Of a DNA stretch of 64,000 nucleotides, positions 1-59,110 are shown one piece after another. A model generated the notes under the pieces. The model was given only the letters and a program-made list of their open reading frames with translations. It had not been told where the DNA came from and ran no database searches. Numbering within the stretch: position 1 is the stretch's first letter; each line of letters begins with the position of its first letter. A program made the translations under genes and the position numbers. The DNA comes from an uncultured bacterium. GTDB taxonomy: Bacteria; Fidelibacterota; Marinisomatia; Marinisomatales; Marinisomataceae. The stretch lies in the NCBI GenBank assembly GCA_943841495.1, contig CALSYL010000003.1:16915-80914 (forward strand), in the 5' to 3' direction.

Positions 1-1452
1 CCCTTTTTCATCAAAAGCCATTACAATAACTGCTGCACCAAATTCTTTAACTATTTCAGCATGTTTTATAAACTCATCTTCTCCTTCTTTTAAGCTTATG
101 GAGTTAACAATAGGTTTACCTTGAATATTTTTTAGCCCTTCTTTTAAAACACTCCATTTAGATGAGTCTATCATAATAGGTACTTTGGATATATTTGGAT
201 CTGCAGATATAAATCTGAGAAAGGTTTCCATAGCTTTTTCAGAATCAAGCATTCCTTCATCCATATTTACATCAATAATTTGTGCACCATTGTCTATTTG
301 TTCTTTTGCAACATTAAGAGCTTTTTCATAATTATCACTTAGAATTAATTTTTTAAAAATAGAAGATCCAGTCACATTAGTACGCTCTCCTATATTGACA
401 AAGTTTATATTATCTCTAAAAATAAATGGCTCCAAGCCTGCAAATGATGTTTGATAATTAATACTAGGAACTATTCTAGGAGCTTCATTTTCTAACTTTT
501 TCTTTTATTGCCTTGATATGTCCTGGTCCTGTTCCACAACAACCGCCTACAATATTTAAATATCCATTTGATGCTAAAGCCGATATTTCTTTTGCCATAA
601 ATTCAGGGCTATCATCATATTCTCCTAATTCATTAGGTAATCCAGCATTAGGATGTGCTGAAACAAAAGTATCTGCAATTTTTGATAATTCAGCTATATA
701 ATACTTCATATCTTTAATTCCTAAAGCACAATTAATACCAATGCTTAATGGATTGCTATATTTTATTGTATGCCAAAAAGCTTCTAATGTTTGTCCAGAT
801 AAAGTTCTACCACTTTTATCTACAATTGTTACAGAGATCATAATTGGGATATCAAGATTATGATCAGTTAAATAGTTATTTATAGCAATGACTGCAGCCT
901 TACAATTCAAAGTATCAAAAATAGTTTCAATCATTAGCAGATCTACTCCACCTTTTACTAATCCATCTACTTGTTCATAATAAGTCTTATAGAGCTCATC
1001 AAAAGTAATATTTCTAAAAGATAAATCTTCAACTTTAGGAGATAGAGAAGCTGTTCTATTTGTTGGGCCAATACTTCCACAAACAAATTTTTGACTGGTA
1101 TTTTTTTTATAATATCTTTTAACAGCATTTTTTGCTAACTGAGCAGATTTAAAGTTCATTTCAAAAACATAATCTTCTAGATGATAATCTGATTGAGATA
1201 TACTATTTGCATTGAATGTATTTGTTTCAATTATGTCTGCACCAGCTTCTAAATATTTATAGTGTATATCTTCTATTAATTGAGGTCTGGTTAAGATAAT
1301 AAGTCATTATTGCCTTTCAAGCTGGATTCATAATTAGAAAATTTTTCTCCTCTATAGTCATCTTCATCAAGCTGAAATTCTTGAATCATTGTACCCATAG
1401 CACCATCTAAGATTAAAATCCTATTTTTTAATATATTTCTTATATCTTTCAT
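1..1452 (-). CDS. metH: Cobalamin-dependent methionine synthase, N-terminal part (homocysteine-binding and pterin-binding domains); runs off the window edge; two frameshifts (~1295, ~490)
   Basis: Manual translation from ATG at 1452: MKDIRNILKNRILILDGAMGTMIQ...GNNDLLS; shifted frame TRPQLIEDIH...AGADIIETNTFNA joins ORF 485..1159 (GSIGPTNRTAS, GINCALG, HPNAGLPN, GGCCGT); after the second shift FVNIGERTNVTGS...IIDVNMDEGMLD...MIDSSKW. Confidence 0.93.
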
Positions 1453-1456
1453 ATAC

Positions 1457-1482
1457 AAAAAAACCAGCTGCTAAGCTGGTTT
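1457..1482 (-). terminator. Intrinsic terminator hairpin just upstream of the metH start (riboswitch expression platform)
   Basis: Minus strand AAACCAGCT-TAGC-AGCTGGTTT followed by a T-run, ending 4 nt before the ATG. Confidence 0.75.
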
Positions 1483-1490
1483 GATTATTT

Positions 1491-1543
1491 ACCATTTTAG
1501 CATTTTTTTTAACGTCGCAGCAATATTGTTCAAATCACGACTT
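1491..1543 (-). ncRNA. SAM-II/SAM-V-like riboswitch aptamer
   Basis: Minus strand AAGUCGUGAUUUGAACAAUAUUGCUGCGACGUUAAAAAAAAUGCUAAAAUGGU: P1 GUCGU/GCGAC, loop GAUUUGAAC..UAUUGC and 3' GCUAAA match the SAM-II/V pseudoknot core; located upstream of a methionine-synthesis gene. Confidence 0.7.
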
Positions 1544-1549
1544 CTGGAG

Positions 1550-1555
1550 ATTATA
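1550..1555 (-). promoter_or_regulatory. Putative sigma-70 -10 box for the riboswitch-metH transcript
   Basis: TATAAT on the minus strand ~7 nt before the aptamer; -35 match is weak (TTATTA at 17 nt). Confidence 0.45.
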
Positions 1556-1660
1556 AGGCTATTTTTTCTAAATAATAAATGTTTTTTTTAATATTGATTT
1601 AAGACTATATTCGCAGCAGAAATGATTAAAAAGCAATATATAAAGAGTATCAACTTAAAT

Positions 1661-2380
1661 ATGTCTATAATTGACCAAATAATTCTATTACAAGATGTTG
1701 ATAATAAATTATTTGAAATCAATAAATTGCTAGGCAATCTTCCAACAAAAGTCCGAGAATTAACCGAAGAAGAAGATTCAGTTAAATTATCACTAGAAAA
1801 TAAAGAAAATGATCTAAAAGAGACCTCTGTGCTAATTAGCACAAATGAAACACTAGTCCAAACTACATTGATAAAATAAATTCATTGAAAGATAAGCTAA
1901 TTGATGGTTCTATTTCTACGAATAAAGAGTATGACGCGATGATGGAAACGATAGATTTTGAAAAAAATCTTTTAGATCAAAAAGAGCTAGAATTAATTGA
2001 GTTAATGACAAAAAAAGAAAATTTAGCAAAAGAAATTGATGAAGATAAAGCTTCCTTAGATGGAATCATTTCAGAATTAAAGTCAAAAAAAGATGATTTA
2101 AATTCTAAAATGGAAGAAGTGTCAGAAGAAAATAATGCATTAAAACTTGAGAGAGACAATTTTGCAAATGACATTCCAGAAGATATCATAGAAAAATATA
2201 TGCAAATATATAATGCTAGAAAAGGTGTAGCGTGTTGCAGAAATTTTAGATAATAACTGTGAAGGTTGTGGAGCATATATTCCTCCTCAATTAGTGAATG
2301 AAGCCCTATCTAAAGAACTAGTCAATTGTGGCACATGTAGTAGATTTTTGTATAAGTCAGAAAACAAATCAGAAAATTAG
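1661..2380 (+). CDS. Coiled-coil protein with C-terminal C4 zinc ribbon (DUF164/CT398-like); two frameshifts (~1875, ~2235)
   Basis: ORFs 1622..1879 and 1885..2253 join into one coiled-coil (LQDVDNKLFEI...KEYDAMMETID...YMQIYNARKGVA); shifted frame continues VAEILDNNCEGCGAYIPPQ...NCGTCSRFLYK to TAG at 2380. Confidence 0.85.
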
Positions 2381-2398
2381 TCATTCGTTAAGTTTTTT

Positions 2399-4326
2399 TT
2401 AATCACTCAATTGATTTGATAAGCCTAATTGTAATTCTTTAATCTCTCTTAATAATAGGTCAATCTTATTTTTCTTGATTCCATGTTTTTTAGCACCTGA
2501 GATAATATCTTCCCATGGAGACAAGTCACATCCAGTGCAAAACATGCCATATTTTTCAAAAATTTTTTCAACTTCTTCTCCAAAAATTTCAATCATACTG
2601 CTGGATGGACATTTTTTCATTTATAGTTCCAGAAAATATTGACAATTTTTCACTCTTTTTTTGTTCATATGGTCCTTGAAGGTAGTCTTAAAAATCCTGT
2701 CTTTACTTGGTCTGTATCTCTCCACCATTTTATCCAATAACCAACCCTAGCTTCATCCCAAGAAAGGTTGCCATTTAATAATAGTTTTGAAGAATATCTT
2801 CTGTTATCTCTAAACGATATTTAGTGTCGGCTTTAATTTGAGAATCTTTTTTGCTTTATTTTCAGATTGCCATTTAAAATTTCAAAATTAAATTCAAAAT
2901 TTAAATTATCCCACTTTTTACCCCAACATTTTAAGTTGACATTAATATCTTCACAGGTTTTTATATCAGGACTGTCATTGAGATAGAGAAAATAATTTTT
3001 TAATTCTTGTTTAGTAACTTTTTTTTCTTTTGTATTCCAATAGTCGCTAATCTTTAATTTATGGCCATTCTTGCTGTAATCTTCTTTAACTGTTTTTTAA
3101 AATATGCTTCTGATTATATATCAACTTTCTATCTTCCCAATATCTATTAATTTCATTATTTTCTGTATTCCAGCTATCACCAGGTATTAAGTCTATTAGT
3201 TTATTTTCTAATCCATTATTCTGTAAACCCTATTAAGATATCATCAATACTATTAGTTATGATTGATTTTAAATAATGTTCATGTTCTGGTTGCCAAAGA
3301 CGAAAGTGTGATGCAAAAGGGATTATATAATTGGCTTCATACAGCTTTGTAGCTTCAATTAATAGCTTAATTTTTCCCTCACATGCTTTTTTCATAATAT
3401 TTTTTCTTCTCTTTTAAGCTAAGGTGTTGCCAAGTAAATGGGTATCCAGAAGCTCCAGTAGAAAAAATACAAACTAACTGCATCAACAGGCTTTACATCT
3501 TCTGCGATATTAGGGTTCAATCCTGCATCATTTAGATTTAAGTACCCTATATCCATCTATATCAATTAATGTGATAGAATCATTAAAAACGCTAACAGGT
3601 TTAAAAAATTTAATCTTTATTTTTTCATGTATATTTATTTCCTGCTCAAAGCTGACTACCTTAACATTAATAAAGCCTAGCTTTTTGAGAAATTTTTGCA
3701 TTCTTTTGTTAGGAAAGTCAGGGATTAAAATAGGAGTCTTTTTATTAAACTTAATTAAAGTAGGAATATGAAAATGATCAGAATGTTCATGTGTAAATAA
3801 TAATAGAATAAGGCTTAATATCTTTTGCCTTAATGTCGGTTAATGGATATTGCCTCCATGCTCCAAGCATGGCAGGTCCCTCAATCCATGGATCAATCAA
3901 TACATTAAGTTTTTTGAGGCTTATATTTAGAGTCGCATGAGAAATTAGTTTTATTTTAATAGGCTTTTTGATGTTTTGAGTTGTGTGAGTGTTTTAGCTA
4001 TAATTTTTGATTTTTTCTTTGTTATTTTAGAGCTATCAACCCATAGAACATCATCGGTTATATTTATGTCTATTAGTGACAATATTTTGAGAGCTATTAG
4101 TACATTTGCCAGATGATTTATTAAATTTCCAATTATGAATTGGGCATAAAAAAACCTCTTCCTTTTTATCAAATTCAATAGATCCGCCCATATGTGGACA
4201 TACCGTAGATCCTAAAAAATATTTTCCATCATTTTTCAATAAAAAATAGTCCTTATCATTCAGAACAATTTTTTTTGGTAATGTAAAATTTTTTTCTTTT
4301 TTTAAATCAATGATTTTTATTTTCAT
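2399..4326 (-). CDS. Rieske [2Fe-2S] + metallo-beta-lactamase-fold CMP-N-acetylneuraminate hydroxylase (CMAH)-like protein with C-terminal DUF1858-like domain; roughly 10 frameshifts
   Basis: Rieske motifs CPHMGG and CPIHNW in ORF 4051..4326; manual frame-walking gives ISHATL..LIDPWIEGPAMLGAW, THEHSDHFHIPTL, LNLNDA, STGASGYPFT, IIPFASHF; ends with KYGMFCTGC...HGI (ORF 2399..2620). Confidence 0.8.
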
Positions 4327-4482
4327 TTAACAAATTTAGGATAAAAAATTTATTTTAAAATAATTTTCTTTTTAATTAGCCTTTAATATGATTATTATAT
4401 TTTGATAATTATAAGTAAAAAACGAACTATAATTAATTTTTAAATTTTTTTTAATAAATAAAAATGCTAAGGTGCATTTAAC

Positions 4483-5342
4483 ATGAAAATAGAACAGCTT
4501 ATATCAAAAATTTTGTCTATAAAGTCAATACCAAACTCAGAATGGATGGAAGGATTAGAAGACAGAAAATTAAAAGAACTAGAGTTTCATGACCAAGATA
4601 GAGATAAAGAGTTTAAAAAAGAATCAAAAGATGAAGGTGATTATGAAAAATATTATGGAAATAGAAAATATTATTCTACAGTGCATAGATCACAGGAATA
4701 CATTAAAAATTGGATTATAAAAGAATCAAAAGATAAGGTGTTTTTTAGATTACGCTTGCGGTGAAGGGGATTATGGTATTCTTGCTGCAGAGTCAGGTGC
4801 AACTTTATCTCTTGGTCTGGACATATCCCCTCTTTCAATTGAAAATGCCAATGAAAAAGCAAGAGAAAAGAATAGTACCTTTAGACCAAAAGGGCGGAAT
4901 TATATTTTTTCAGGGGGATTGCGAAAATACTAAATTACCTGATAACTCTATTGATACAATCATTTGTTCTGGTATGTTACATCACTTAGATAGATCATAT
5001 GCTTTTCCAGAGTTAAGAAGAATTCTAAAGCCTGGTGGAAAAATATTAGCTGCGGAAGCATTAAACTATAATCCTGCAATCAAACTTTATAGAATGCTTA
5101 CGCCTGCAATGCGTACTGATTTTGAGAAAGAACATATTCTTTCATTAAAAGATTTAAAATTTGCAAAACACTTTCTTGATGTTAAAGAAATCAAGTTTTG
5201 GCATGTTATTGGTTATGTTGGCGGAAAATTACCGTTTTTGTTTCCTATACTAGACAATATTGATAAAATACTAGAAAAAATTCCTTTTATCAATTTAATG
5301 GGTTGGCAGTTTACTTTCGTTCTACAAAAACGAGAAGATTAA
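4483..5342 (+). CDS. Class I SAM-dependent methyltransferase; frameshifted (~4745, ~4860-4910)
   Basis: Joined frames give FLDYACGEG (motif I), GLDISPLSIE, GDCENTKLPDNSIDTIICSGMLHH, ELRRILKPGG. Confidence 0.85.
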
Positions 5343-5445
5343 AATAAATTATTTAATTCTATTTAGTAAATCATAGGTGATACTTAAAAGATTCTTTTAA
5401 TTTTTTTCTTCTTAATTCAATTTCTATCCCTTATTATACCTTAAT

Positions 5446-5785
5446 GAGCTGATTGGATGATTACTCGATTTTTTCGAGAGGAAAGTCCGGGCACCGCAGA
5501 GCATAGTGCCACCTAACAGGTGGGATTCGTGAGAATATGGACAGTGCAGCAGAAAGTAGACCGCCATTTATTTGGTAAGGGTGAAACGGTGGTGTAAGAG
5601 ACCACCAGTAATAGTGGTAACATTATTAGCTGGTAAACCCCACTAGGTGCAAGATCACGTAGACCCGAGATGCTGCTCGCATCATTTGAGGGAAGGGTAG
5701 ATTGCTAGAGTTTTATAGAAATATAAAATAGAGAGGAATGATCATCGCATCAATGATGTACAAAACCCGGCTTATAAATCAGCTC
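5446..5785 (+). ncRNA. rnpB: RNase P RNA (bacterial type A)
   Basis: Conserved GAGGAAAGTCCGGGC, AGTGCAGCAGAAAG, GGGTGAAACGGTGG, GGTAAACCCC, ACAAAACCCGGCTTAT; terminal helix GAGCTGATT/AATCAGCTC. Confidence 0.97.
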
Positions 5786-5796
5786 AAAAAATTGTT

Positions 5797-16807: not shown

Positions 16808-18145
16808 ATGTTTATAAGAAGCGCATCTGGCCTAAGAGGAATAGCGAAGGAAGATTTTTCTCCCGATGTTATTGATCAATATGTTTGCTCGTATATTCTA
16901 AATCAAAATATCCAAAAATGTACCATAGGACGAGATGGAAGAAAGTCTGGAAATGAAATTTCAAAATGGGTTATTAATTCTTTAATAAATAACGGAGTTG
17001 ATGTAGTAAATTGTGACTTGGCCACTACTCCAACTATGCAATTAATTACAGAAAAAAGTGATTGTAATGGAGGTATTGTTATTACAGCTAGTCACAACCC
17101 AGCAGAGTATAATGGATTAAAATTTTTACAATCAGATGGAACTTTCTTAACTCCTAAGCAATGTGAAGAATTATTTAAATCAGTCGATAATGAGGAAAAA
17201 ATAGAATTACAAACAAATATTGGACATATTTCTCACTATGCAAATGCTGATAAAGATCATATAAATGCTATTTTAAACTTGTCATGTATTGAACGAGAAA
17301 AAATTAAGAGTAATAAATTTAAAGTTGTTATAGATGCTACAAACGGTGGAGCTTCAAAGATCCTACCTCTACTATGTAGAGAGCTTAGTTGTTCAGTTGT
17401 TACAATTAATTGTGATGGCAATGGAGATTATTCTAGAAATCCGGAACCATTGTCAATTAATTTAGGCGAGCTTGAAAAAAGAGTAAAAAAAGAAAATGCT
17501 GATATAGGATTAGCTACAGACCCTGATGGCGATAGATTATCTATAGTGTCAAACGATGGAAAAGCAATTGGTGAAGAACTTTCCTTACCCTTAGCTATAA
17601 TGAATTATAGTTTTTATTCAATCAAACCCGAGACATTTGTTACAAATTTATCTACATCTATGATGGTTGATGATGTTGTTAGTAGCTTTAATGGTACACT
17701 GCTAAGATCAAAAATAGGAGAAGCAAATGTTGTATCCTTGATGAGAAAACATAATGTTAATCTTGGTGGAGAAGGTAATGGAGGAATAATACTTAAGGAG
17801 GCTCATTTGGGTAGAGACTCATTAGTCGGAGCAGCAATGGTATTAAACTTAATGTCTATTAAAAGTAATACCCTGGACAATATTATTACTGAAATTCCTC
17901 AGTATGTTTTTATTAAAGATAAAATTAACCTCAATTCATCTAAAGAAATAGATATTGATAGTCTTGATAGTGTTTTCAATTGTGACGAAATTAATAAGTT
18001 AGATGGCATCAAGTTCATTTGGTCAAATAAATGGATCCATATTAGAAAATCTAATACTGAACCCATCCTCAGAATTTTTGCGGAAGGTACATCCATCAAT
18101 GAGCTGAGATCATTAACAAAAAAGCTACAAGAGTTTGTAAGATGA
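16808..18145 (+). CDS. glmM: Phosphoglucosamine mutase / alpha-D-phosphohexomutase
   Basis: ITASHNP, DPDGDR, GGEGNGG, RKSNTEP; exact substrate not certain. Confidence 0.8.
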   Translation: MFIRSASGLRGIAKEDFSPDVIDQYVCSYILNQNIQKCTIGRDGRKSGNEISKWVINSLINNGVDVVNCDLATTPTMQLITEKSDCNGGIVITASHNPAEYNGLKFLQSDGTFLTPKQCEELFKSVDNEEKIELQTNIGHISHYANADKDHINAILNLSCIEREKIKSNKFKVVIDATNGGASKILPLLCRELSCSVVTINCDGNGDYSRNPEPLSINLGELEKRVKKENADIGLATDPDGDRLSIVSNDGKAIGEELSLPLAIMNYSFYSIKPETFVTNLSTSMMVDDVVSSFNGTLLRSKIGEANVVSLMRKHNVNLGGEGNGGIILKEAHLGRDSLVGAAMVLNLMSIKSNTLDNIITEIPQYVFIKDKINLNSSKEIDIDSLDSVFNCDEINKLDGIKFIWSNKWIHIRKSNTEPILRIFAEGTSINELRSLTKKLQEFVR

Positions 18146-20766
18146 AATTACTAGAAAAAAAACATATCCCATCTGAGATTGAACAAAAATGGTATGATTA
18201 CTGGCTTAAAAAAAAATACTTTTCAAGCAAGGAATCAGATAATCATTATACAATCGTTATACCCCCACCTAATGTTACTGGTAAGCTTCATATGGGGCAT
18301 GTTCTTAATAACACCATTCAAGATATATTAATTAGAAAAGCTAGGATGGAAGGTAAGAATGCTTGTTGGATTCCTGGAACTGACCATGCCTCGATTGCTA
18401 CTGAATCAAAAGTCACAAAAATGTTACAAGAACAAGGAATTAACAAAAAAGATTTATCTAGAGATGAATTTCTTGAACATGCATGGCAATGGAAAGAAAA
18501 GTATGGTGGAACTATTATTAATCAATTACAAAAACTAGGATGTTCATGTGATTGGGATAAAACAAGCTTTACAATGGATCCAGATTATTCAAAAGCTGTT
18601 TTAGAGTCTTTTGTTAGACTTTACAATAAGGGTTTAATATATAAGGGAAGTAAGCTTGTTAATTGGTGCCCAAAATCACAAACTGCGCTAAGCGATGAAG
18701 AAGTCATGTTTAAAGAGGTTAATGGAAAGCTTTGGCATATTAAATATGCAATTAATAATAGTGACTCATTTATAGAAATTGCTACAACTAGACCAGAAAC
18801 GATGTTAGGCGACACAGCTATTGCTGTTAACCCCAAAGATAATAGGTATAAGCAAATGGTTGGTAAAACAGCATCCTTGCCGCTAGTGGGAAGAAATATT
18901 CCAATTATTGCCGATAGCATGGTTGATCCAGAATTTGGTACCGGCTGTGTAAAAATTACTCCAGCACATGATTTAAATGATTATGAGGTTGGTATCAGAC
19001 ATAATCTTGAAATAATAAATATCATGAATTCAGATGGGTCTATAAGCAATAAAGCTCCAGATAAATATGTAGGCTTGAGCAGAGAGGATGCAAGAAAAAA
19101 AATAGTCAATGATCTCAAAGATCTAGGTCATTTGTCTAAAGAAGAGGAGTATTTACATAAAGTAGGATTCTCGGAAAGAGGAGACGTACCAATAGAATAT
19201 TATTTATCTGAGCAATGGTTTTTAAAAATGAAAGATCTTGCTATGCCTGCTAGCAAAGCTGTTAAAGATAAAGAAATAAATTTTTATCCTAATCATTGGG
19301 TAAAAACGTACAATCATTGGATGGACAATATCCAAGATTGGTGTATTAGTAGGCAGTTATATTGGGGGCATCAAATACCAGTATGGTATAAAAAAGATTC
19401 AGATAGAACCAATCAAGAAAACTGGTATATTTCTACTACTCCTCCATCGGACATAGAAAATTGGGAGCAAGATGAAGACGTGCTAGACACTTGGTTTAGT
19501 TCATGGCTATGGCCTTTCGCTGTACATGGGTGGCCAGATAAAGAAAAGACCAATTATTTTCCAACTAATGCACTAGTAACAGGCCCAGATATTATATTTT
19601 TTTGGGTCGCTAGAATGATTATGTCAGGGTATGAATTCATGGGAGATTTGCCATTTAGAGATGTTTATTTTACCAGCATTTTAAGAGACGAAAAAGGAAG
19701 AAAGTTAAGCAAGTCGCTTGGAAATTCTCCTGACCCTATAACACTTTTTGATAAATATGGCACTGATGCAACCAGATTTTCAATAATGCTAATGTCTCCA
19801 CAAGGATCAGATGTTTATTTTTCAGAGAAAGGAATTGAGGTTGGTAGAAATTTTATGACAAAGATCTGGAATGCTAGCCGATTTATTATGCTAAATCATA
19901 ATGACGATTTTTCTGATGAAATTGATTATGACAATATTGATAATTTTGACAAATGGATTTTAAGCTCATTGGATGATACAGTAAGAGAAGTAAATAAATC
20001 ATTTGATAAATATCAATTTAATGAAGCAATCAAAAAAATATATGATTTTACCTGGAATGAATTCTGTAATTGGTATATTGAAATTGTAAAAGACAGATTT
20101 AATAGTTCAAACTTATCTCTTAGAAGCAATGCATTTAATATTTCAAAATATATTATCAAAAAAATACTATTATTATTACACCCAATTTCTCCATTTATTT
20201 CGGAAGAAATTTGGAATCATTTAAAAAACAAAAATGATAAAGATATTATAATATCTCCATGGCCATCTACTAGTAATAAAGTTAAATCTTATGATAATGA
20301 AAGCATTAAAGATTTTAAAGAAATCGTAACATCTATTAGAACCATACGTTCAGAATTAAATATTGCTCCATCTAAAAAAATTGATATTATAATATCAGTT
20401 AAGAGTGATTTAGAGGTAAATACAATCAATGCTTACACACATTTGATAAGAAAGCTTTCAAATACTGATAAAATTGATTTAGGTCTCAAAATAGAAAAGC
20501 CTTCTAACTCAGCACTTGCAGTATGCAGAATAGCAGAAATATATATTCCATTGGGCAAGCTTGTTGATAAGAATGAAGAAATTTTAAAACTAAATAAAAG
20601 ACTATCTGAACTCGATAAATTAATTTCGTCGATTGAAGCCAAGTTATCAAATAAGCAATTTATTGATAAAGCTCCTGAAAAAGTTGTAGATGGAGAAAAA
20701 AATAAACTAAATGATTTTATCATTGAAAGAGAAAAAATTCTTTCTAATATTGAGGTATTAAAATGA
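18142..20766 (+). CDS. valS: Valine--tRNA ligase
   Basis: PPPNVTGKLHMGH, DWCISRQLYWGH, DVLDTWFSS, KLSKSLGN, C-terminal coiled coil. Confidence 0.97.
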   Translation: MKLLEKKHIPSEIEQKWYDYWLKKKYFSSKESDNHYTIVIPPPNVTGKLHMGHVLNNTIQDILIRKARMEGKNACWIPGTDHASIATESKVTKMLQEQGINKKDLSRDEFLEHAWQWKEKYGGTIINQLQKLGCSCDWDKTSFTMDPDYSKAVLESFVRLYNKGLIYKGSKLVNWCPKSQTALSDEEVMFKEVNGKLWHIKYAINNSDSFIEIATTRPETMLGDTAIAVNPKDNRYKQMVGKTASLPLVGRNIPIIADSMVDPEFGTGCVKITPAHDLNDYEVGIRHNLEIINIMNSDGSISNKAPDKYVGLSREDARKKIVNDLKDLGHLSKEEEYLHKVGFSERGDVPIEYYLSEQWFLKMKDLAMPASKAVKDKEINFYPNHWVKTYNHWMDNIQDWCISRQLYWGHQIPVWYKKDSDRTNQENWYISTTPPSDIENWEQDEDVLDTWFSSWLWPFAVHGWPDKEKTNYFPTNALVTGPDIIFFWVARMIMSGYEFMGDLPFRDVYFTSILRDEKGRKLSKSLGNSPDPITLFDKYGTDATRFSIMLMSPQGSDVYFSEKGIEVGRNFMTKIWNASRFIMLNHNDDFSDEIDYDNIDNFDKWILSSLDDTVREVNKSFDKYQFNEAIKKIYDFTWNEFCNWYIEIVKDRFNSSNLSLRSNAFNISKYIIKKILLLLHPISPFISEEIWNHLKNKNDKDIIISPWPSTSNKVKSYDNESIKDFKEIVTSIRTIRSELNIAPSKKIDIIISVKSDLEVNTINAYTHLIRKLSNTDKIDLGLKIEKPSNSALAVCRIAEIYIPLGKLVDKNEEILKLNKRLSELDKLISSIEAKLSNKQFIDKAPEKVVDGEKNKLNDFIIEREKILSNIEVLK

Positions 20767-22103: not shown

Positions 22104-24203
22104 TTGAGCGAAGCGTTACAAAATTCTAATTCGTTAGAAACACCAATACAGTATATTAAAGGAGTCGGTCCTAAAAGAGCTAATGCGCTTGAATCCCTTA
22201 ATATTTTTACAATCAAAGATTTACTTTATTATTTTCCAAGAAAATATGTTGATAGAACATCTTTATCTACTATAGGATCAATTAAGGAAGGAGAAGAAGT
22301 CAATCTTGTTGGTAGAGTAAAGTCTGTCAGTCTAAAAAGAATGAAAAAAGGGAACTTTGTTACATCAACTGTGGCTGATCATACTGGATCAGTACGATTA
22401 ATGTGGTTTAATGCTGCAGACTATATTCACCAATCTTTAAAAGTAGGAGATTTGATTACTATTCATGGAAAAGTAGCGGCTTACAAGGGAAACCCACAAA
22501 TTGTCCATCCAGAATATGATAAACTAAATGCTAACGAAATTTCGTTAACAACGGGATTTATTATTCCCGTATATCCTTTAACAGAAGATTTAAAAAAATC
22601 GGGTCTAGATAATAGAAATTTAAGAAAGATAATATATCTAGCTTTGGAGTCGATTGATAATATTGACGATCATTTCAACCAAGAGTTAAGAAAGGAATTT
22701 GAAATCGAAGATTTAAATACATCTTTGCGCAATATTCATTATCCAAAAGATTTTAAATCATTAGACAATTCAATTCATAGGCTAAAATACGATGAACACT
22801 TTTTTCTTCAACTGCTATTAGCATTACGAAAAAACAAAATCAAAGAAAATAAATGTGATTCTATAAAGTTTAAAACAACTACTTATAATAAAATTTTAAA
22901 CAATCTTCCTTTTGATTTAACAGGTAGTCAAAAACTTACACTTAGAGAAATTGTAGATGATTTTTTATCCGAAAATCCAATGAATAGAATGATTCAAGGT
23001 GATGTTGGATGTGGTAAAACAATCGTATCAGTTCTTGCTTCTGCTATTGTAGTTGACAATAATTATCAAGTTGCTATTATGGCACCTACAGATTTACTAT
23101 CAAAACAGCTCTATAAAAATTTTAAATCTCATTTTGATCAAGCTAATATTAAGTGTTCGTTGTTAGTTGGAAGTCTAAAGGCAAACGAGAAAAAGAAAAT
23201 ATTAGAAAACATAAAAAGCGGTAAATCTAATATAGTTATTGGCACGCATGCACTATTCCAGAAGGATGTAGTTTTTAATAATCTTGGGTTTGTAGTTATT
23301 GATGAACAACATCGTTTTGGAGTAAACCAAAGAGAAAAATTACTATCAAAGAGCAAGAATCCAAACCTTATGGCAATGACAGCTACGCCAATACCAAGAA
23401 CACTAGCTATTACTTATAATGGAGATATGGATCTTTCAATAATTGATGAATTGCCAAAAAATAGGCCGGAAATACATACTTCATATATTGCAAAGGACAA
23501 TCTTTCAACTGCATATAATTTCATTAGAGAAAAAGTTGATGACGGTGGTCAAACTATCATTGTATATCCACTAATCAATGAAAGTGATAAACAGGATCTT
23601 TCAGCTGCAGTTGAATCATATGAATATTTAAGAGATAATATATTTCCTGATTTAAAAGTTGGACTGATGCATGGAAAACTAGAGAATGAGTTAAAAAATG
23701 ATGAAATGAAAAAGTTTATGAATGGAGAAATCAATATTTTAGTTTCGACAACAGTTGTTGAGGTGGGCATAGATAATCCGAATGTAAACGTAATATTAAT
23801 CAATAATACAGAAAGATTTGGTCTAAGTCAGATTCACCAATTAAGAGGTAGAGTTGGTAGAGGAGTATTGACAAGCTATTGTCTATTATGTAGTGATAGC
23901 GAATCTCCTAAAACAAAAGAAAGACTGCAAATTATAGTTAACTCAAGAAATGGTTTTGATATAGCAGATGAAGATTTAAAATTAAGAGGACCAGGAGAAT
24001 TTTTTGGTGAAAAACAAAGTGGATTTATAAAGTTTAGAATTGCTGACTTAACTACAGATGGTCCAATTATTAGAAATGCTCGAATGAATGCTTTTGAAAT
24101 TATTAAGAATGATGCAAATTTGACCCAAGAAAAACATTTAATTATCAAAGAAAAATTTGATGAGGAATATTTAAAATTATTTTTAAAAACAACAGTAAAC
24201 TGA
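22104..24203 (+). CDS. recG: ATP-dependent DNA helicase RecG
   Basis: IKGVGPK, wedge domain, QGDVGCGKT, DEQHRFG, MTATPIPRTL, QLRGRVGR, DLKLRGPGE. Confidence 0.97.
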   Translation: MSEALQNSNSLETPIQYIKGVGPKRANALESLNIFTIKDLLYYFPRKYVDRTSLSTIGSIKEGEEVNLVGRVKSVSLKRMKKGNFVTSTVADHTGSVRLMWFNAADYIHQSLKVGDLITIHGKVAAYKGNPQIVHPEYDKLNANEISLTTGFIIPVYPLTEDLKKSGLDNRNLRKIIYLALESIDNIDDHFNQELRKEFEIEDLNTSLRNIHYPKDFKSLDNSIHRLKYDEHFFLQLLLALRKNKIKENKCDSIKFKTTTYNKILNNLPFDLTGSQKLTLREIVDDFLSENPMNRMIQGDVGCGKTIVSVLASAIVVDNNYQVAIMAPTDLLSKQLYKNFKSHFDQANIKCSLLVGSLKANEKKKILENIKSGKSNIVIGTHALFQKDVVFNNLGFVVIDEQHRFGVNQREKLLSKSKNPNLMAMTATPIPRTLAITYNGDMDLSIIDELPKNRPEIHTSYIAKDNLSTAYNFIREKVDDGGQTIIVYPLINESDKQDLSAAVESYEYLRDNIFPDLKVGLMHGKLENELKNDEMKKFMNGEINILVSTTVVEVGIDNPNVNVILINNTERFGLSQIHQLRGRVGRGVLTSYCLLCSDSESPKTKERLQIIVNSRNGFDIADEDLKLRGPGEFFGEKQSGFIKFRIADLTTDGPIIRNARMNAFEIIKNDANLTQEKHLIIKEKFDEEYLKLFLKTTVN

Positions 24204-36954: not shown

Positions 36955-39230
<2,276 letters not shown>

Positions 39231-39231
<1 letters not shown>

Positions 39232-51843: not shown

Positions 51844-52127
51844 TGGATTTATTTTCACATTCCTGGCTTCCTTTTATATATCAATATGGTTTCGGAGTAT
51901 TAATCTTTGGTGGTGGACTATTTGCAGTATTTAAAGCATATGGGGGTCAACAATTTTGGAATGAGTACAAGATTTGGATTCAAATTCTTGTATGGGGTTT
52001 CATTTATGTTACTTCTATTCATTTGCTTATGACTGTTTCTGCTCTTAATGATTTTCCTCAATTATATTTTGTTATTTTATTGATGTATGTATTTAATGTC
52101 ATGTTATTAACAAGGAAACTTTCATGA
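51843..52127 (+). CDS. Small membrane protein coupled to the downstream symporter
   Basis: Three hydrophobic stretches; overlaps HIT stop and symporter start. Confidence 0.65.
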   Translation: MDLFSHSWLPFIYQYGFGVLIFGGGLFAVFKAYGGQQFWNEYKIWIQILVWGFIYVTSIHLLMTVSALNDFPQLYFVILLMYVFNVMLLTRKLS

Positions 52128-53995
52128 CCACTATTCCAACTACAGAACTTTTTTGGGTTATTCTTACAGCATATGTTTTTTTTGTTTTAGGTGCTGGTTT
52201 ATTTTTTGCTCGTAATAATCAGTCCACTGAAGACTTTTTCTTTGGAGGAAGAAGATTTTCTTGGTGGTTAATTGGAATGTCCATGTTAGCTACTGGTGTT
52301 GGATCACATAGTTTTGCAAAGTATGCATCAAAAGGATTTGAATACGGATTTTCATCCACAATGACTTACATGAATGATTGGTTCTTTATGCCATTATTGT
52401 TATTTGGCTGGATACCAATTATTTACTATATGCAGGTTAATTCTATTCCAGAATATTTTGAAAGACGTTTTAATTCCACGGTAAGAAATTTGTCAACAAT
52501 CACTATGCTGCTTTACCTCATTGGCTACATTGGTATTGGGTTACTAGCTCTTGGATCATTATTGCAGCCAATATTAGGATGGGAGATAAATACGATTATC
52601 ATTGTAGTTGCAGTTATTTCAGGAGTATATGTTTCTCTGGGAGGTCAAACTGCTATTATCTTTACTGATTTTCTTCAAGGAGTAATTTTGCTTTTTGCAG
52701 GACTATTAATTTTTGGGCTAGGTATTGCATATATAGGTGGATTTGATTTGTTCTGGGACAATCTTTCTACAACCAATAAGTTACCATTGGCTGACTTTAA
52801 TTCACCTCCAGATTTTAATTTTGTAGGAATTTTCTGGCAAGATGGTGTGGTAGGTTCTGTTGGATTCGCATTCATGAATCAAGCAGTAATTATGCGATTT
52901 TTAGCATCTCGTTCTGTAGCGCATGCAAGAAGAGCAACGATGATGAATGTACTTGTATTTCTACCAATTGGAACCGTAGCGGTTTCTAATTCTGGATGGA
53001 TTGCAAGGGCTATAGCTAATATTAATCCAAATATTATTCCAGAAACAACAAACCCTAATGGAATCTTTACTGTAGTTGCTTCCTTGGTATCTAATTCTGA
53101 ACCAATTTTTGCATTTTTAGTTGCAGCTGTTGTTGCAGCCTTAATGTCTAGTCTAGATTCTCAAATTAACGCTTCGGCAGCAGTAGCTGTAAATGATGTA
53201 TATACTCCATTAAGCAAAAATCCTTCTGAAAAAACACGTTTGAGAGTATCTATGCTTACTTCTTTGTTGGTAACGTTTATTGGCATTCAAGCAGCATTCT
53301 TATTTGCACAATATGGAACTATTTATGAGGCACATGGAGCCTTTCATAGTGTAGTAACTCCACCTATGGTTACGGTTATATTTTTAGGAATTTTCTGGCA
53401 ACGATTCTCATCAAGAGCGGCCATATTAACCTTTTTGCTAGGAGCAGTATTTATTTTCTTAGGTATCCAGTATCCACAATTTTTTGTTCAACCATTTTCG
53501 CATGGCATAGAGTACGTTGAAGCAAAACCATGGTCATACATAAGAGCGCTTTATAATGTATTTGCCTGCACAACCATTGGAGTGATTGTAACATTATTAA
53601 CAACCAAGCCTGGCAAAGATCATTACAAAAAAATTAAAGGATTAACCTTGTGGACTATTAAAGATGGTCCAGAGTATTTCAAGGGGTCTACAGTTAATGA
53701 AAATGCTGGAAGTAAAATTACCTTTAATGGTGAGATGATTGAAGTTATTAGTAGTACATCTAACGAAATTAATTTACCAAAGGATTTAATGGATGAACTA
53801 GGGGCAAAAGAAGGTGATTTTGCATACATATCAGATGTAAGATGGTATTTTGGAGGACTAAAATCCACCCATGCCAATATCGGAAAATGCTCTTCAAATA
53901 AAAACATTCAGATTTCAGATAATGTCCAAAGTCATGGTCAATTTGACCTTACAAAAAAAATTATTTATCGAGCTAGAATTATAGTTTTTTTTTAA
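52124..53995 (+). CDS. Sodium:solute symporter (SSS/SLC5) with C-terminal soluble extension; true end probably ~53974 (A-run slip)
   Basis: EDFFFGGRRFSW, IPEYFERRF, GGQTAIIFTD, QAVIMRFLA, AALMSSLDS. Confidence 0.9.
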   Translation: MTTIPTTELFWVILTAYVFFVLGAGLFFARNNQSTEDFFFGGRRFSWWLIGMSMLATGVGSHSFAKYASKGFEYGFSSTMTYMNDWFFMPLLLFGWIPIIYYMQVNSIPEYFERRFNSTVRNLSTITMLLYLIGYIGIGLLALGSLLQPILGWEINTIIIVVAVISGVYVSLGGQTAIIFTDFLQGVILLFAGLLIFGLGIAYIGGFDLFWDNLSTTNKLPLADFNSPPDFNFVGIFWQDGVVGSVGFAFMNQAVIMRFLASRSVAHARRATMMNVLVFLPIGTVAVSNSGWIARAIANINPNIIPETTNPNGIFTVVASLVSNSEPIFAFLVAAVVAALMSSLDSQINASAAVAVNDVYTPLSKNPSEKTRLRVSMLTSLLVTFIGIQAAFLFAQYGTIYEAHGAFHSVVTPPMVTVIFLGIFWQRFSSRAAILTFLLGAVFIFLGIQYPQFFVQPFSHGIEYVEAKPWSYIRALYNVFACTTIGVIVTLLTTKPGKDHYKKIKGLTLWTIKDGPEYFKGSTVNENAGSKITFNGEMIEVISSTSNEINLPKDLMDELGAKEGDFAYISDVRWYFGGLKSTHANIGKCSSNKNIQISDNVQSHGQFDLTKKIIYRARIIVFF

Positions 53996-54465: not shown

Positions 54466-54538
54466 TCCGGAGTAGCTCAGTTGGTAGAGCGAGTGACTGT
54501 TAATCACCAGGTCGGGAGTTCGAGTCTCTCCTCCGGAG
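54466..54538 (+). tRNA. tRNA-Asn(GTT)
   Basis: TCCGGAG/CTCCGGA acceptor stem, TAGCTCAGTTGGTAGAGC, anticodon loop CTGTTAA, GTTCGAGTC; CCA not encoded. Confidence 0.97.
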
Positions 54539-54577
54539 CAATAATTAAAGAGTTCAATAATAAGGGAATAAAATAAA

Positions 54578-58172: not shown

Positions 58173-59048
58173 ATGCTTTTATACCTATTATTTTTTATTG
58201 TATTAATTATTTTCATCTATTTTTTTCGTAATTCAATAATTATAAATATCTATAAACTGCCGATGATACGAAAGTCTTGGCAGCTTCCTCATATGAATGC
58301 ACACAATGTTAATCTTGTTAATAATGATAAGCCTGTAGTTGTTTGTTGTGGTGACAGTATCACTCATGGTCATATTGGATACGATTGGGTGAGCACTTTA
58401 AGAAAGAATGATGATTCAAAAGTCTATATCAATGCGGGTATTAATGCAGATCTGACTTGGAATTTAAATCAACGAATTGAAGATATTATCAAGCACGATC
58501 CGGAATACATTACTATTTTAATTGGAACAAATGATGCAATTGGAAGTCAACCAGTTAAGTTAATACAAGATTATTATATGGAAACTAAAGGGTTGCCACA
58601 AAAACCTTCGATAGACTGGTACAAAGAACAGTTAGAATTTTTTATAAAAAATATTAAAGAACATACTAATGCTAAAATTGCAATTTTCACACTTCCTTGG
58701 TTAGGAGAACAAAAAACATCTTCTATTATGCAAGTTGTAAGAAGTCACAACAAAATAATTAAAGATTTAGCTAAAAATTATAATCTAGAAATCCTTGATC
58801 TGTATAATGAATTTGATTTGAATATTACAAAAAACAATAGCGTACCATATACAACATCAGAACTAAGAAGATTAAGAGGGTTGAGGGCAGTTGTTCTCCA
58901 TTATGTATTTGGCTGGAGTTGGAATGATATTGGGGAAAAATATAGATTGAAATTATTATGTGATCATATCCATCTAAATGAAAGAGGGGGATTGATTATA
59001 AAGAATTTGGCAAAAGGTTTTCTATCAAATTCGTCGTACCCCGGATAG
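58173..59048 (+). CDS. SGNH/GDSL hydrolase with N-terminal membrane anchor
   Basis: GDSIT, NAGINAD, LIGTND, DHIH. Confidence 0.9.
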   Translation: MLLYLLFFIVLIIFIYFFRNSIIINIYKLPMIRKSWQLPHMNAHNVNLVNNDKPVVVCCGDSITHGHIGYDWVSTLRKNDDSKVYINAGINADLTWNLNQRIEDIIKHDPEYITILIGTNDAIGSQPVKLIQDYYMETKGLPQKPSIDWYKEQLEFFIKNIKEHTNAKIAIFTLPWLGEQKTSSIMQVVRSHNKIIKDLAKNYNLEILDLYNEFDLNITKNNSVPYTTSELRRLRGLRAVVLHYVFGWSWNDIGEKYRLKLLCDHIHLNERGGLIIKNLAKGFLSNSSYPG

Positions 59049-59110
59049 GATTTGAACCTATGACCTACGGATTAGAAATCCGTTGCTCTATCCAGCTGAG
59101 CTACCGGGGC
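59037..59110 (-). tRNA. tRNA-Arg(TCT)
   Basis: Reverse complement GCCCCGGTAGCTCAGCTGGATAGAGCAACGGATTTCTAATCCGTAGGTCATAGGTTCAAATCCTATCCGGGGTA. Confidence 0.97.

What the first reader, a model, noticed from the sequence alone, without database searches (positions are those of the whole stretch)
1457..1555. SAM-II/SAM-V-like riboswitch with a complete transcriptional switch upstream of metH
Seen on the minus strand, in order: TATAAT, aptamer (P1 GUCGU/GCGAC; GAUUUGAAC..UAUUGC; GCUAAA), then a terminator ending 4 nt before the ATG. The aptamer 3' strand GCUAAAAUGGU (1491-1501) is complementary to the terminator 5' arm and loop ACCAGCUUAGC (1470-1480): GCUAA/UUAGC and UGGU/ACCA. This gives a mutually exclusive antiterminator. 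Established: SAM-II/V pseudoknots are best known from Proteobacteria (including SAR11) and Bacteroidetes and are mostly described as translational switches. Inference: here SAM binding ties up the antiterminator strand and terminates transcription. The aptamer mixes a SAM-V-like AUUUGAAC with a SAM-II-like GCUAAA and may be a variant class.
Basis: partly seen in the sequence, partly recalled or inferred. Interest (0 to 1): 0.7.

Follow-up and report, generated by a model that had tools for sequence, protein, structure and literature searches.

The report
SAM-II riboswitch terminator before metH
This is an ordinary member of the known SAM-II riboswitch family: a short RNA leader that most likely stops transcription of the methionine synthase gene when S-adenosylmethionine is plentiful, found here in an uncultured marine bacterium of the Marinimicrobia (SAR406) group.

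Summary
On the minus strand, 1555..1450 holds a TATAAT box, a pseudoknot aptamer, a hairpin followed by seven U, and the metH ATG four bases later.

- **Family:** Rfam's SAM_alpha model (RF00521, SAM-II) matches 1551..1476 at 37.1 bits, just above its cut-off of 36 (E 9e-5). SAM-V scores 15.5 against a cut-off of 41, and SAM-II long-loop 25.7 against 44.
- **Relatives:** The same leader precedes metH in eleven related contigs (MetH 58-100% identical), two of them from MAGs labelled Marinimicrobia. The terminator stem shows one compensatory G-C to U-A change.
- **Antiterminator:** The proposed pairing is real and non-random, at -11.5 kcal/mol against -3.2±1.7 for 2000 randomised hairpins. Its UUAGCA partner is also kept in metY leaders that have different terminator stems. 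It is the predicted lowest-energy fold just before the terminator's 3' arm is transcribed.

It is a SAM-responsive OFF transcription attenuator. However, the literature says most SAM-II elements already pair with terminators, so this is the canonical arrangement and not a new class. SAM binding and termination are inferred, not tested.

The metH copy in this window carries two frameshifts. Interest is low: a new member of a known kind.

The parts
1550..1555 (-). -10 promoter box TATAAT. The likely transcription start is a few bases before P1.
   Evidence: Read directly. The box is conserved at the same place in L001, L129, L181 and L182. No good -35 was found: TTATTA at 17 bp spacing, and the consensus scan did not report this site. 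Corbino 2005 describes the same placement for SAM-II.
1537..1541 (-). P1 helix, 5' strand (GUCGU).
   Evidence: Pairs with 1514-1518. It sits inside the P1 pairs of the RF00521 alignment. The closing pair varies among relatives: U-G, C-G or U-A. An optional sixth pair covaries A-U/U-A.
1531..1536 (-). L1, GAUUUG. The three U form the major-groove triplex strand that contacts SAM in solved SAM-II structures.
   Evidence: Invariant in all 13 aligned leaders. It matches the RF00521, RF01726 and RF01826 consensus. The role of the U triplet is taken from PMC3303485.
1520..1529 (-). P2 5' strand inside the P1 loop: ACAAUAUUGC. UUGC is P2b and the upstream part is a short A/U-rich P2a.
   Evidence: UUGC pairs with GC(U)AA at 1501-1497 and is invariant. 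P2a pairs 1526-1494 (A-U/G-U) and 1529-1491 (A-U/U-A) vary compatibly among relatives.
1514..1518 (-). P1 helix, 3' strand (GCGAC).
1503..1513 (-). A-rich linker (L3), GUUAAAAAAAA, between P1 and the pseudoknot 3' strand.
   Evidence: Matches the UUAAA.AA consensus of RF00521 and RF01726.
1491..1502 (-). Switching strand UGCUAAAAUGGU. It is the 3' strand of pseudoknot P2 (unpaired U1499 is the base that pairs with the adenine of SAM in solved structures) or, alternatively, the 5' strand of the antiterminator.
   Evidence: Invariant UGCUAAAA.GG in 13 leaders. Pseudoknot pairs were counted and antiterminator pairs. The structural role comes from PMC3303485.
1483..1490 (-). Variable A/U-rich spacer between the aptamer and the terminator.
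   Evidence: This is the most variable stretch in sequence and length among relatives, while both flanks are conserved.
1469..1480 (-). Antiterminator 3' strand ACCAGCUUAGCA: the terminator's 5' arm, its loop and the first base of its 3' arm.
   Evidence: Complementary to 1491-1502. The duplex is -11.5 kcal/mol against -3.2±1.7 in 2000 randomised hairpins. It is the predicted lowest-energy fold at transcript lengths 80-83. UUAGCA is kept in the metY leaders L095 and L144, which have different stems.
1457..1482 (-). Intrinsic terminator: 9-bp stem AAACCAGCU/AGCUGGUUU, loop UAGC, and a run of seven U (1463-1457).
   Evidence: Terminator scan. Hairpin energy is -11.1 kcal/mol. In ten relatives 94% of cells pair, with one compensatory G-C to U-A change (L182) and two wobble changes.
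1..1452 (-). metH (cobalamin-dependent methionine synthase), N-terminal 484 codons. It runs off the window start and is broken here by two single-base deletions, near 1295 and near 488-491.
   Evidence: Three-frame translation. The repaired N-terminus is 84% identical to MetH of a Marinimicrobia MAG and hits PF02574 + PF00809 proteins. The 99%-identical contig L129 is intact at the first site.

Best explanation
The leader is a SAM-II class riboswitch (Rfam RF00521) that works as a genetic OFF switch for metH by transcription attenuation.

1. Transcription starts a few bases after the TATAAT box.
2. P1 forms first. The 3' strand UGCUAAAAUGGU can then fold back onto UAUUGC in the P1 loop to make the H-type pseudoknot, with the three U of GAUUUG lying in its groove.
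3. When SAM is bound, this pseudoknot is locked. The switching strand is then unavailable, the downstream hairpin AAACCAGCU/AGCUGGUUU plus U7 forms, and RNA polymerase terminates just before the ATG.
4. When SAM is scarce, the switching strand is free as ACCAGCUUAGCA emerges. It pairs with that sequence (6 bp + 4 bp), which occupies the terminator's 5' arm and whole loop. The terminator cannot form and transcription continues into metH.

Shown here: the sequence elements, family membership by covariance model, conservation in relatives, non-random complementarity, and the predicted folding order. Inferred: SAM binding, termination itself, and that the decision is kinetic.
For: **Family membership**
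- RF00521 scores 37.1 bits against a cut-off of 36, E 9.2e-5. It is the only riboswitch hit in the window.
- Five of the metH leaders (L001, L087, L101, L103, L129) also pass, at 37.1-42.4 bits.
- All nucleotides that contact SAM in solved SAM-II structures are present and invariant in 13 relatives: the UUU of L1, the UU|GC step, and the unpaired U of GCUAAA.

**Gene context**
- The context is the classical Met/SAM regulon. Here the gene is metH. Close aptamer relatives from metagenomes precede metY, bhmt-like, metF, metX and mmuM-like genes.

**Terminator**
- It was detected only in the sense orientation.
- It is conserved from 70 to 100% MetH identity while the spacer drifts.
- L182 carries a compensatory G-C to U-A change.

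**Antiterminator**
- 0 of 2000 randomised hairpins match its stability.
- It is the lowest-energy fold of the nascent RNA at 80-83 nt, and the terminator takes over only once its 3' arm exists.
- All four substitutions seen on the terminator side keep or improve antiterminator pairing.
- Leaders with unrelated terminator stems keep UUAGCA in the loop (L095 p=0.011, L144 p=0.003). A metF leader (L130) has its own tail-to-terminator complementarity (p=0.012).

**Literature**
- A promoter just before P1 and a terminator after P2 is the usual SAM-II layout.
- Increased termination on SAM binding is proposed, from Northern and stability data, for S. meliloti metZ.

**Translation context**
- The genome rarely uses Shine-Dalgarno sequences: 7 of 33 starts have an SD-like 4-mer. 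An SD-masking platform would therefore have little to act on.
Against: - The Rfam score clears the cut-off by only 1.1 bits.
- Within this clade the core pairs of P1 and P2 never vary, so covariation support from these relatives alone is weak: 35 of 500 shuffles reach the observed score. The antiterminator has no two-sided covariation, because its 5' strand is the invariant ligand-binding strand.
- The most distant metH leaders (L179 and L180, MetH 58% identical) have a different terminator with no significant complementarity to the tail (p about 0.5-0.6). There the tail instead pairs with the adjacent spacer. The exact antiterminator design is therefore not universal.
- The antiterminator is about 1-2 kcal/mol weaker than the terminator (-9.8 against -11.1), so the model needs kinetic control, which was not tested.
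- The whole leader does not fold unusually well (z = -1.4). This is expected for a pseudoknot that the folding program cannot model.
- The metH copy in this window is frameshifted.
- No binding or termination experiment exists for this RNA.
Confidence: 0.78

Rival explanations
1. The hairpin acts mainly or additionally on translation. Because it ends 8-11 nt before the AUG of a gene without a Shine-Dalgarno sequence, the SAM-stabilised hairpin would hide the A/U-rich ribosome landing region. The antiterminator fold would leave AGCUGGUUUUUUUGUAU single-stranded. The switch would then be translational or dual (transcription plus translation).
For: - The U run abuts the start codon in every metH leader of the clade, 0-5 nt away. 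This holds even in L179 and L180, which have a different terminator.
- The genome is SD-poor, so an unstructured A/U-rich leader is probably what ribosomes need. This last point rests on my own knowledge of Bacteroidetes-type initiation.
- The terminator and antiterminator differ by only about 1-2 kcal/mol, so they could interconvert on full-length mRNA.
Against: - The start codon and the 8 nt before it stay unpaired in both folds.
- A GC-cored hairpin followed by U7 is a canonical intrinsic terminator.
- The related metY leaders L095 and L144 place the same hairpin about 45 nt upstream of an SD-bearing start, where it can only act on transcription.
- Tight spacing may simply reflect a streamlined genome.
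Confidence: 0.12
2. The element is a dead relic in this particular genome. metH and three neighbouring genes are disrupted, so the leader no longer regulates anything here.
For: - There are two frameshifts in metH.
- There are 23 single-base indels between 1295 and 4875 relative to the 99%-identical contig L129, whose ORFs are intact.
Against: - About as many indels as substitutions (23 against 26), nearly all of them extra bases in the window, looks like assembly or polishing error and not decay.
- No indel falls inside the leader, and the leader differs from L129 at only three bases.
- The rest of the window has intact ORFs.
Confidence: 0.06
3. It is a distinct aptamer class or specificity variant, a SAM-II/SAM-V hybrid, possibly with altered ligand preference.
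For: - L1 and the P2 5' strand (AUUUGAACAAUAUUG) match the SAM-V consensus AuUUGAACuGUAUUG more closely than the GC-rich alphaproteobacterial SAM-II consensus.
- P2a is short and A/U-rich, as in SAM-V and the translational metX SAM-II.
- The Rfam score is borderline.
Against: - It passes the SAM_alpha cut-off, while SAM-V scores 15.5 against 41 and long-loop 25.7 against 44.
- The C-G pair of UUGC/GC is the SAM-II state. SAM-V has U-A there.
- It has no SD in P2a and no P3.
- All ligand-contacting positions are the canonical ones.
- SAM-II and SAM-V cores superimpose at 0.37 Å and bind SAM identically, so a 'hybrid' lies inside known variation.
Confidence: 0.04

Closest known systems
SAM-II riboswitch (Rfam RF00521 SAM_alpha; metA motif of Agrobacterium tumefaciens; terminator-type metZ leader of Sinorhizobium meliloti)
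   Same: - Single stem P1 plus an H-type pseudoknot.
- GAUUUG / UUGC / GCUAAA core.
- Promoter a few bases before P1.
- Intrinsic terminator between P2 and a methionine-pathway ORF.
- OFF logic.
   Different: - The host is a 30% GC Marinimicrobia-like genome, not a proteobacterium.
- P2a is short and A/U-rich instead of the GGCC/GGCC helix of the consensus (alignment).
- The regulated gene is metH.
- The terminator's U run reaches to within 4 nt of the start codon.
SAM-V riboswitch (RF01826; Candidatus Pelagibacter ubique metY and bhmT)
   Same: - Same fold and SAM pocket.
- Very similar L1 and P2 5' strand sequence, AUUUGAAC..UAUUG, and an A-rich tail ending in GG.
- Marine, AT-rich hosts.
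   Different: - SAM-V is translational, with the SD inside P2a. This element has no SD, and a terminator follows.
- It has a C-G pair where SAM-V has U-A.
- The model score is 15.5, far below the cut-off of 41.
SAM-II long-loop variant (RF01726; Bacteroidetes metK leaders)
   Same: - Same core and the AAAAAAAUGCUAAA tail.
- It was found in the same metagenome scan upstream of metK at 45-68 bits.
   Different: - The window scores only 25.7 against a cut-off of 44.
- P1 abuts GAUUUG directly, without the extra internal 3-bp helix and spacer.
Tandem SAM-II/SAM-V leader of Pelagibacter bhmT
   Same: A marine SAM-II aptamer followed by a hairpin and poly-U that is thought to act on transcription.
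   Different: No second aptamer follows here. The ATG comes right after the U run.
Transcriptional preQ1-I and S-box (SAM-I) attenuators of Firmicutes
   Same: Same logic: ligand binding sequesters a strand that would otherwise form an antiterminator. preQ1-I also uses the 3' tail of a small H-type pseudoknot (otherwise my own knowledge).
   Different: Unrelated aptamer folds and ligands (preQ1-I), or a four-way junction aptamer (SAM-I).

Membership tests
SAM-II (RF00521) | Covariance-model score at or above Rfam's curated gathering cut-off | tested here: met
   37.1 bits against 36, E 9.2e-5 in 64 kb. Five of the related metH leaders score 37.1-42.4. The margin is small.
SAM-II (RF00521) | P1 stem enclosing L1 and the 5' strand of P2 | tested here: met
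   G1541-U1537 pairs with G1518-C1514. Four pairs are invariant. The closing pair is U-G, C-G or U-A, and an optional sixth pair is A-U or U-A in relatives. P1 differs in sequence but is kept in wider relatives, for example GUGG/CCAC, AGGG/CCCU and AAUCG/CGAUU (by eye).
SAM-II (RF00521) | Pseudoknot P2b: UUGC in the P1 loop pairs with GC(U)AA downstream, leaving one U unpaired for the SAM adenine | tested here: met
   U1523-C1520 pairs with G1501, C1500, A1498 and A1497, with U1499 unpaired. All are invariant in 13 leaders, so they are conserved but not covarying. The structural role comes from PMC3303485.
SAM-II (RF00521) | U-rich L1 (AUUUG) available for major-groove base triples | tested here: met
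   A1535-G1531 is invariant. Triplex formation itself is not testable here.
SAM-II (RF00521) | P2a helix extending the pseudoknot (often 5 bp and GC-rich) | tested here: inconclusive
   Only a short interrupted helix is possible: 1525-1495, 1526-1494, 1528-1492 and 1529-1491. Pair 1529-1491 shows A-U/U-A in 8 of 13 leaders and is mismatched in 5. A short P2a is known for the metX SAM-II.
SAM-II (RF00521) | Location in the 5' leader of a methionine or SAM metabolism gene | tested here: met
   It lies directly upstream of metH. Relatives lie upstream of metY, metF, metX, bhmt-like and metK genes.
SAM-II (RF00521) | Selective binding of SAM over SAH | not testable with these tools
   Needs in-line probing, ITC or equilibrium dialysis.
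Transcription-attenuating riboswitch (aptamer / antiterminator / terminator) | Intrinsic terminator between the aptamer and the ORF, in the sense orientation | tested here: met
   9-bp stem with 4 G-C pairs plus U7. It is conserved, with one compensatory change.
Transcription-attenuating riboswitch (aptamer / antiterminator / terminator) | An alternative helix that shares one strand with the ligand-bound aptamer and the other with the terminator | tested here: met
   1491-1502 pairs with 1469-1480. Randomisation gives p<0.0005. It is the lowest-energy fold of the nascent transcript. Parallel cases are L095, L144 and L130, but not L179 or L180.
Transcription-attenuating riboswitch (aptamer / antiterminator / terminator) | Ligand-dependent termination | not testable with these tools
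   Needs single-round transcription assays or metatranscriptome coverage.
SAM-V (RF01826) | Covariance-model score at or above the cut-off | tested here: not met
   15.5 bits against 41. No SAM-V hit at E<=0.5 in any of 17 related loci.
SAM-V (RF01826) | Shine-Dalgarno sequence inside P2a, next to the start codon (translational switch) | tested here: not met
   The tail is AAAAUGGU, not AAAAAGGAG. The ATG lies 38 nt further on, after a terminator.
SAM-II long loop (RF01726) | Covariance-model score at or above the cut-off | tested here: not met
   25.7 bits against 44.

The most novel reading that the evidence does not exclude
In Marinimicrobia, which largely lack Shine-Dalgarno sequences, the SAM-II expression platform may be a compact two-level device. 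The terminator's 3' arm and U run would double as the ribosome landing pad directly in front of the AUG. One SAM-controlled refolding would then set both termination and, on read-through transcripts, translation initiation. The clade's aptamer, whose sequence lies between SAM-II and SAM-V, would mark the evolutionary bridge between the transcriptional and translational branches of this fold.
Probability: 0.2. Interest if true: 0.45.

Novelty: new member of a known kind. Interest (0 to 1): 0.2.

Why it matters
It adds little that is conceptually new, because Rfam-based annotation would already label this element.

Its modest value is threefold:
- It places a SAM-II riboswitch, with a readable antiterminator, in an abundant but uncultured marine phylum (SAR406/Marinimicrobia). 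No paper in the searched library mentions riboswitches in that phylum.
- It indicates that these cells sense SAM to control B12-dependent methionine synthesis.
- The terminator-loop motif UUAGCA is held constant because its partner is the invariant ligand-binding strand. This is a tidy example of how an aptamer constrains its expression platform, and it could help predict platforms for other SAM-II members whose switching mechanism is still described as not experimentally established.

Tried and rejected
- **SAM-V and SAM-II long-loop membership:** both score far below their cut-offs.
- **Weak Rfam hits over the same stretch** (OrzO-P, STnc50, STnc370, Phe leader, S15, 6A): all are far below their cut-offs and are driven by the terminator or the A-runs.
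- **Promoter-like site 1512..1484 inside the aptamer:** the scan found no more promoter-like sites than shuffled sequence gives (4 against 5.3), so I treat this one as chance in AT-rich DNA.
- **SAM-II leaders before metH in other phyla:** none of the other 79 best genome matches (MetH 53-60% identical) has the GATTTG..TTGC..GCTAAA pattern. Four contigs holding MetH at about 61-62% identity, three of them measured at 55-66% GC, have no such leader.
- **Scan of viral contigs for the aptamer pattern:** 54 hits, all inside coding sequence and without a P1, so chance matches.
- **Formal covariation on the clade alignment:** too little variation to be decisive for P1/P2 or the antiterminator. I used a randomised-hairpin test instead.
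- **Antiterminator in L179 and L180:** not significant. Those leaders may switch differently.
- **Taxon names from protein clusters of window genes:** none were returned. The assignment to Marinimicrobia rests on MAG labels of L001 and L179. One 2-kb contig with the same leader (L182) sits in a MAG labelled Gammaproteobacteria, probably mis-binned.
- **Poiata 2009 (SAM-V discovery paper):** not held in the library.

Full report
**What is there**

Read on the minus strand, the stretch 1555..1450 contains, in order:
- a perfect TATAAT box (1555-1550);
- a 5-bp stem P1 (G1541-U1537 with G1518-C1514);
- inside its loop, GAUUUG (1536-1531) and ACAAUAUUGC (1529-1520);
- an A-rich linker;
- the strand UGCUAAAAUGGU (1502-1491);
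- an 8-nt A/U spacer;
- a hairpin AAACCAGCU-UAGC-AGCUGGUUU (1482-1461) whose 3' arm runs into seven U (1463-1457);
- GUAU, then ATG (1452-1450).

The ORF that follows is the N-terminal part of cobalamin-dependent methionine synthase. With two single-base deletions repaired, it is 84% identical to MetH of a MAG labelled Candidatus Neomarinimicrobiota. It also matches proteins carrying PF02574 and PF00809.

**Is it more than chance?**

Rfam's SAM_alpha model (RF00521, the SAM-II riboswitch) matches 1551..1476 at 37.1 bits against a curated cut-off of 36. The E-value is 9.2e-5 for the whole window against all 4227 families. Apart from RNase P RNA and two tRNAs, it is the only RNA family hit in 64 kb, even with permissive filters. 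The terminator scan reports the hairpin as terminator-like in the minus orientation only, with 3 sites found in the 800-nt region against 0.3 expected.

The proposed antiterminator is in fact one pair longer than stated:
- U1502-A1497 pairs with U1474-A1469 (6 bp);
- a 2x2 mismatch follows;
- U1494-U1491 pairs with A1480-A1477 (4 bp).

I randomised the terminator 2000 times, permuting and flipping its base pairs and shuffling its loop. No version was as complementary to the tail: -11.5 kcal/mol against -3.2±1.7.

**Relatives**

One genome scan, one metagenome scan and look-ups of MetH homologues gave eleven further metH leaders of the same build:
- L129 is 99% identical to the window;
- L001, L087, L101, L103, L181 and L182 have MetH about 84-86% identical;
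- L176 and L177 have MetH 70% identical;
- L179 and L180 have MetH 58% identical.

L001 and L179 come from MAGs labelled Marinimicrobia. L001, L103 and L129 also share the nearby RNase P RNA gene with the window. The five close leaders that were scanned pass the SAM_alpha cut-off, at 37.1-42.4 bits.

Across the alignment, the aptamer core and the terminator are conserved, while the spacer between them drifts in sequence and length. The terminator stem pairs in 94% of cells. L182 has a compensatory G-C to U-A change, and L103 and L182 have wobble changes. All four substitutions on the terminator side keep or improve the antiterminator.

Two metY leaders (L095, L144) have a very similar aptamer but different terminator stems: AGCCGG/CCGGCU and CCGGU/ACCGG. 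They still carry UUAGCA in the terminator loop, which is exactly complementary to UGCUAA of the aptamer (p = 0.011 and 0.003). A metF leader (L130) has its own tail-to-terminator complementarity (p = 0.012). This is what one expects if the ligand-binding strand cannot change and its antiterminator partner must therefore stay fixed while the rest of the stem is free to covary.

L179 and L180 are the exception. Their terminator has no significant complementarity to the tail, and the tail pairs with the adjacent spacer instead.

**Folding order**

I folded growing transcripts of the window leader.
- Up to about 71 nt, the only stable element is P1, apart from a weak 5-bp hairpin within the tail.
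- At 80-83 nt, when the terminator's 5' arm and loop have emerged, the lowest-energy structure is P1 plus the antiterminator (-13.9 to -14.4 kcal/mol in total).
- The full-length lowest-energy fold has the terminator (-18.7). In the near-identical L129 the terminator takes over as soon as its 3' arm is made.

The antiterminator hairpin (-9.8) is slightly weaker than the terminator (-11.1). The choice must therefore be made kinetically, as in other attenuating riboswitches. The ten antiterminator-forming bases of the tail all lie inside the pseudoknot 3' strand, which comprises P2b G1501, C1500, A1498 and A1497 and P2a A1495, U1494, G1492 and U1491. A SAM-locked pseudoknot therefore excludes the antiterminator completely.

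**Mechanism**

The best-supported reading is a SAM-II OFF switch acting on transcription. With SAM bound, the pseudoknot holds the tail, the terminator forms, and RNA polymerase stops at the U run just before the ATG. Without SAM, the tail pairs with ACCAGCUUAGCA and transcription reads into metH.

The sequence anatomy, family membership, conservation and predicted folding are shown here. SAM binding, termination and the kinetic decision are inferred.

**Comparison with what is known**

The layout is the canonical one.
- Corbino et al. 2005 describe SAM-II as a single stem plus a pseudoknot. It usually has a promoter a few nucleotides before P1 and, in many members, an intrinsic terminator between P2 and the ORF.
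[quoted passage not shown] - In S. meliloti the metZ SAM-II leader yields a terminated small RNA.

The SAM-V consensus is AuUUGAACuGUAUUGU...ACUAAAAAGGAG, and this clade's short A/U-rich P2a resembles SAM-V and the marine metX SAM-II. Against that:
- the element has the SAM-II C-G pair (UUGC/GC);
- it has no Shine-Dalgarno sequence in P2a;
- it scores 15.5 against the SAM-V cut-off of 41;
- the two classes share one fold and one pocket in any case.

All nucleotides that contact SAM in the solved SAM-II structure are present: the L1 U triplet, the U|G step where the adenine stacks, and the unpaired U of GCUAAA.

**What is mildly new**

- **Host.** The host is a 30% GC marine genome, most likely Marinimicrobia/SAR406. 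The searched literature holds nothing on riboswitches in that phylum.
- **Restriction to the clade.** Among the 80 best genome matches to this MetH, only the Marinimicrobia one has the leader. The high-GC homologues lack it.
- **Spacing to the start codon.** In all eleven metH leaders for which the sequence up to the start codon was read, the U run reaches to within 0-5 nt of the start codon. Only 7 of 33 genes in the window have an SD-like motif.

That spacing leaves room for a second, translational effect of the same hairpin. I rate this as a minority possibility. The AUG and the 8 nt before it are unpaired in both folds, and the metY relatives place the same hairpin about 45 nt from an SD-bearing start.

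**Caveats**

- The Rfam margin is 1.1 bits.
- The clade is too uniform for strong covariation statistics on P1 and P2.
- The copy of metH in this window has two frameshifts. The first 5 kb carry 23 single-base indels relative to the 99%-identical contig L129, whose genes are intact. The leader itself has no indel.

**Verdict**

This is a new member, in a new phylum, of a well-known kind. Interest 0.2.

Noticed in passing
window 1-4900 (indels at 1295, 1650, 1869, 2237 ... 4875; second metH frameshift near 488-491): Relative to the 98.96%-identical metagenome contig L129, the window has 23 single-base indels, 21 of them extra bases and in both homopolymer and non-homopolymer contexts. They break four genes: metH, a CT398-like coiled-coil/zinc-ribbon gene, a 637-aa Rieske-domain gene and a class I methyltransferase. 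L129 has all four intact, and ORFs from 5797 onward in the window are intact. This looks like a local assembly or polishing problem and not gene decay, but that is not proven.
   Followed up: partly
window 5445-5790 (+): Bacterial RNase P RNA class A, 265.9 bits. The same gene lies near the metH leader in L001, L103 and L129, so the neighbourhood is conserved.
   Followed up: partly
window 54466-54539 (+) and 59036-59110 (-): tRNA-Asn (GTT) and tRNA-Arg (TCT). The rest of the window is ordinary chromosome: valS 18142-20766, recG 22104-24203, pyrG 37624-39231, secD 62007-63806 (-), and a sodium/solute symporter at 52124-53995.
   Followed up: partly
window, 33 ATG starts between 5797 and 63806: Only 7 of 33 start codons are preceded by an SD-like 4-mer. 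Upstream regions are A/T-rich. This suggests Bacteroidetes-like, SD-independent initiation in this organism.
   Followed up: partly
L095 (2331-2390, -) and L144 (91-164, -), metagenome contigs: metY leaders with an aptamer nearly identical to the window's. The terminator stems differ but the loop motif UUAGCA is the same. A long spacer and a clear AGGAG/GGGAG Shine-Dalgarno sequence follow, unlike the window's genes. The taxon is unknown.
   Followed up: partly
L112 (2884-2958), L146 (831-905), L152 (2051-2125): SAM-II-like aptamers just below the Rfam cut-off (26.7-32.5 bits) lie upstream of betaine-homocysteine-methyltransferase-like genes. A hairpin without a U run follows, so the expression platform is unclear. 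[quoted passage not shown]
   Followed up: no
L179 (about 1113-1200) and L180 (about 437-525): In the most distant metH leaders the aptamer tail can pair with the spacer right after it. The registers differ: GGUGC/GUACC in L179 and UGCUA/UAGCA in L180. The tail does not pair with the terminator, so how SAM would control termination there is unexplained.
   Followed up: partly
L182 (contig JABIYK010000017.1, 2 kb): A contig with this Marinimicrobia-type leader and a MetH 85% identical to the window's belongs to a MAG labelled Gammaproteobacteria. It is probably a binning error.
   Followed up: no
L177 (contig 21580_2__contig_13622_pilon): The metH of this relative is also split into several called genes (377 + 40 + 181 + ... 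aa). This again suggests frameshift errors in a long-read assembly and not real gene fission.
   Followed up: no
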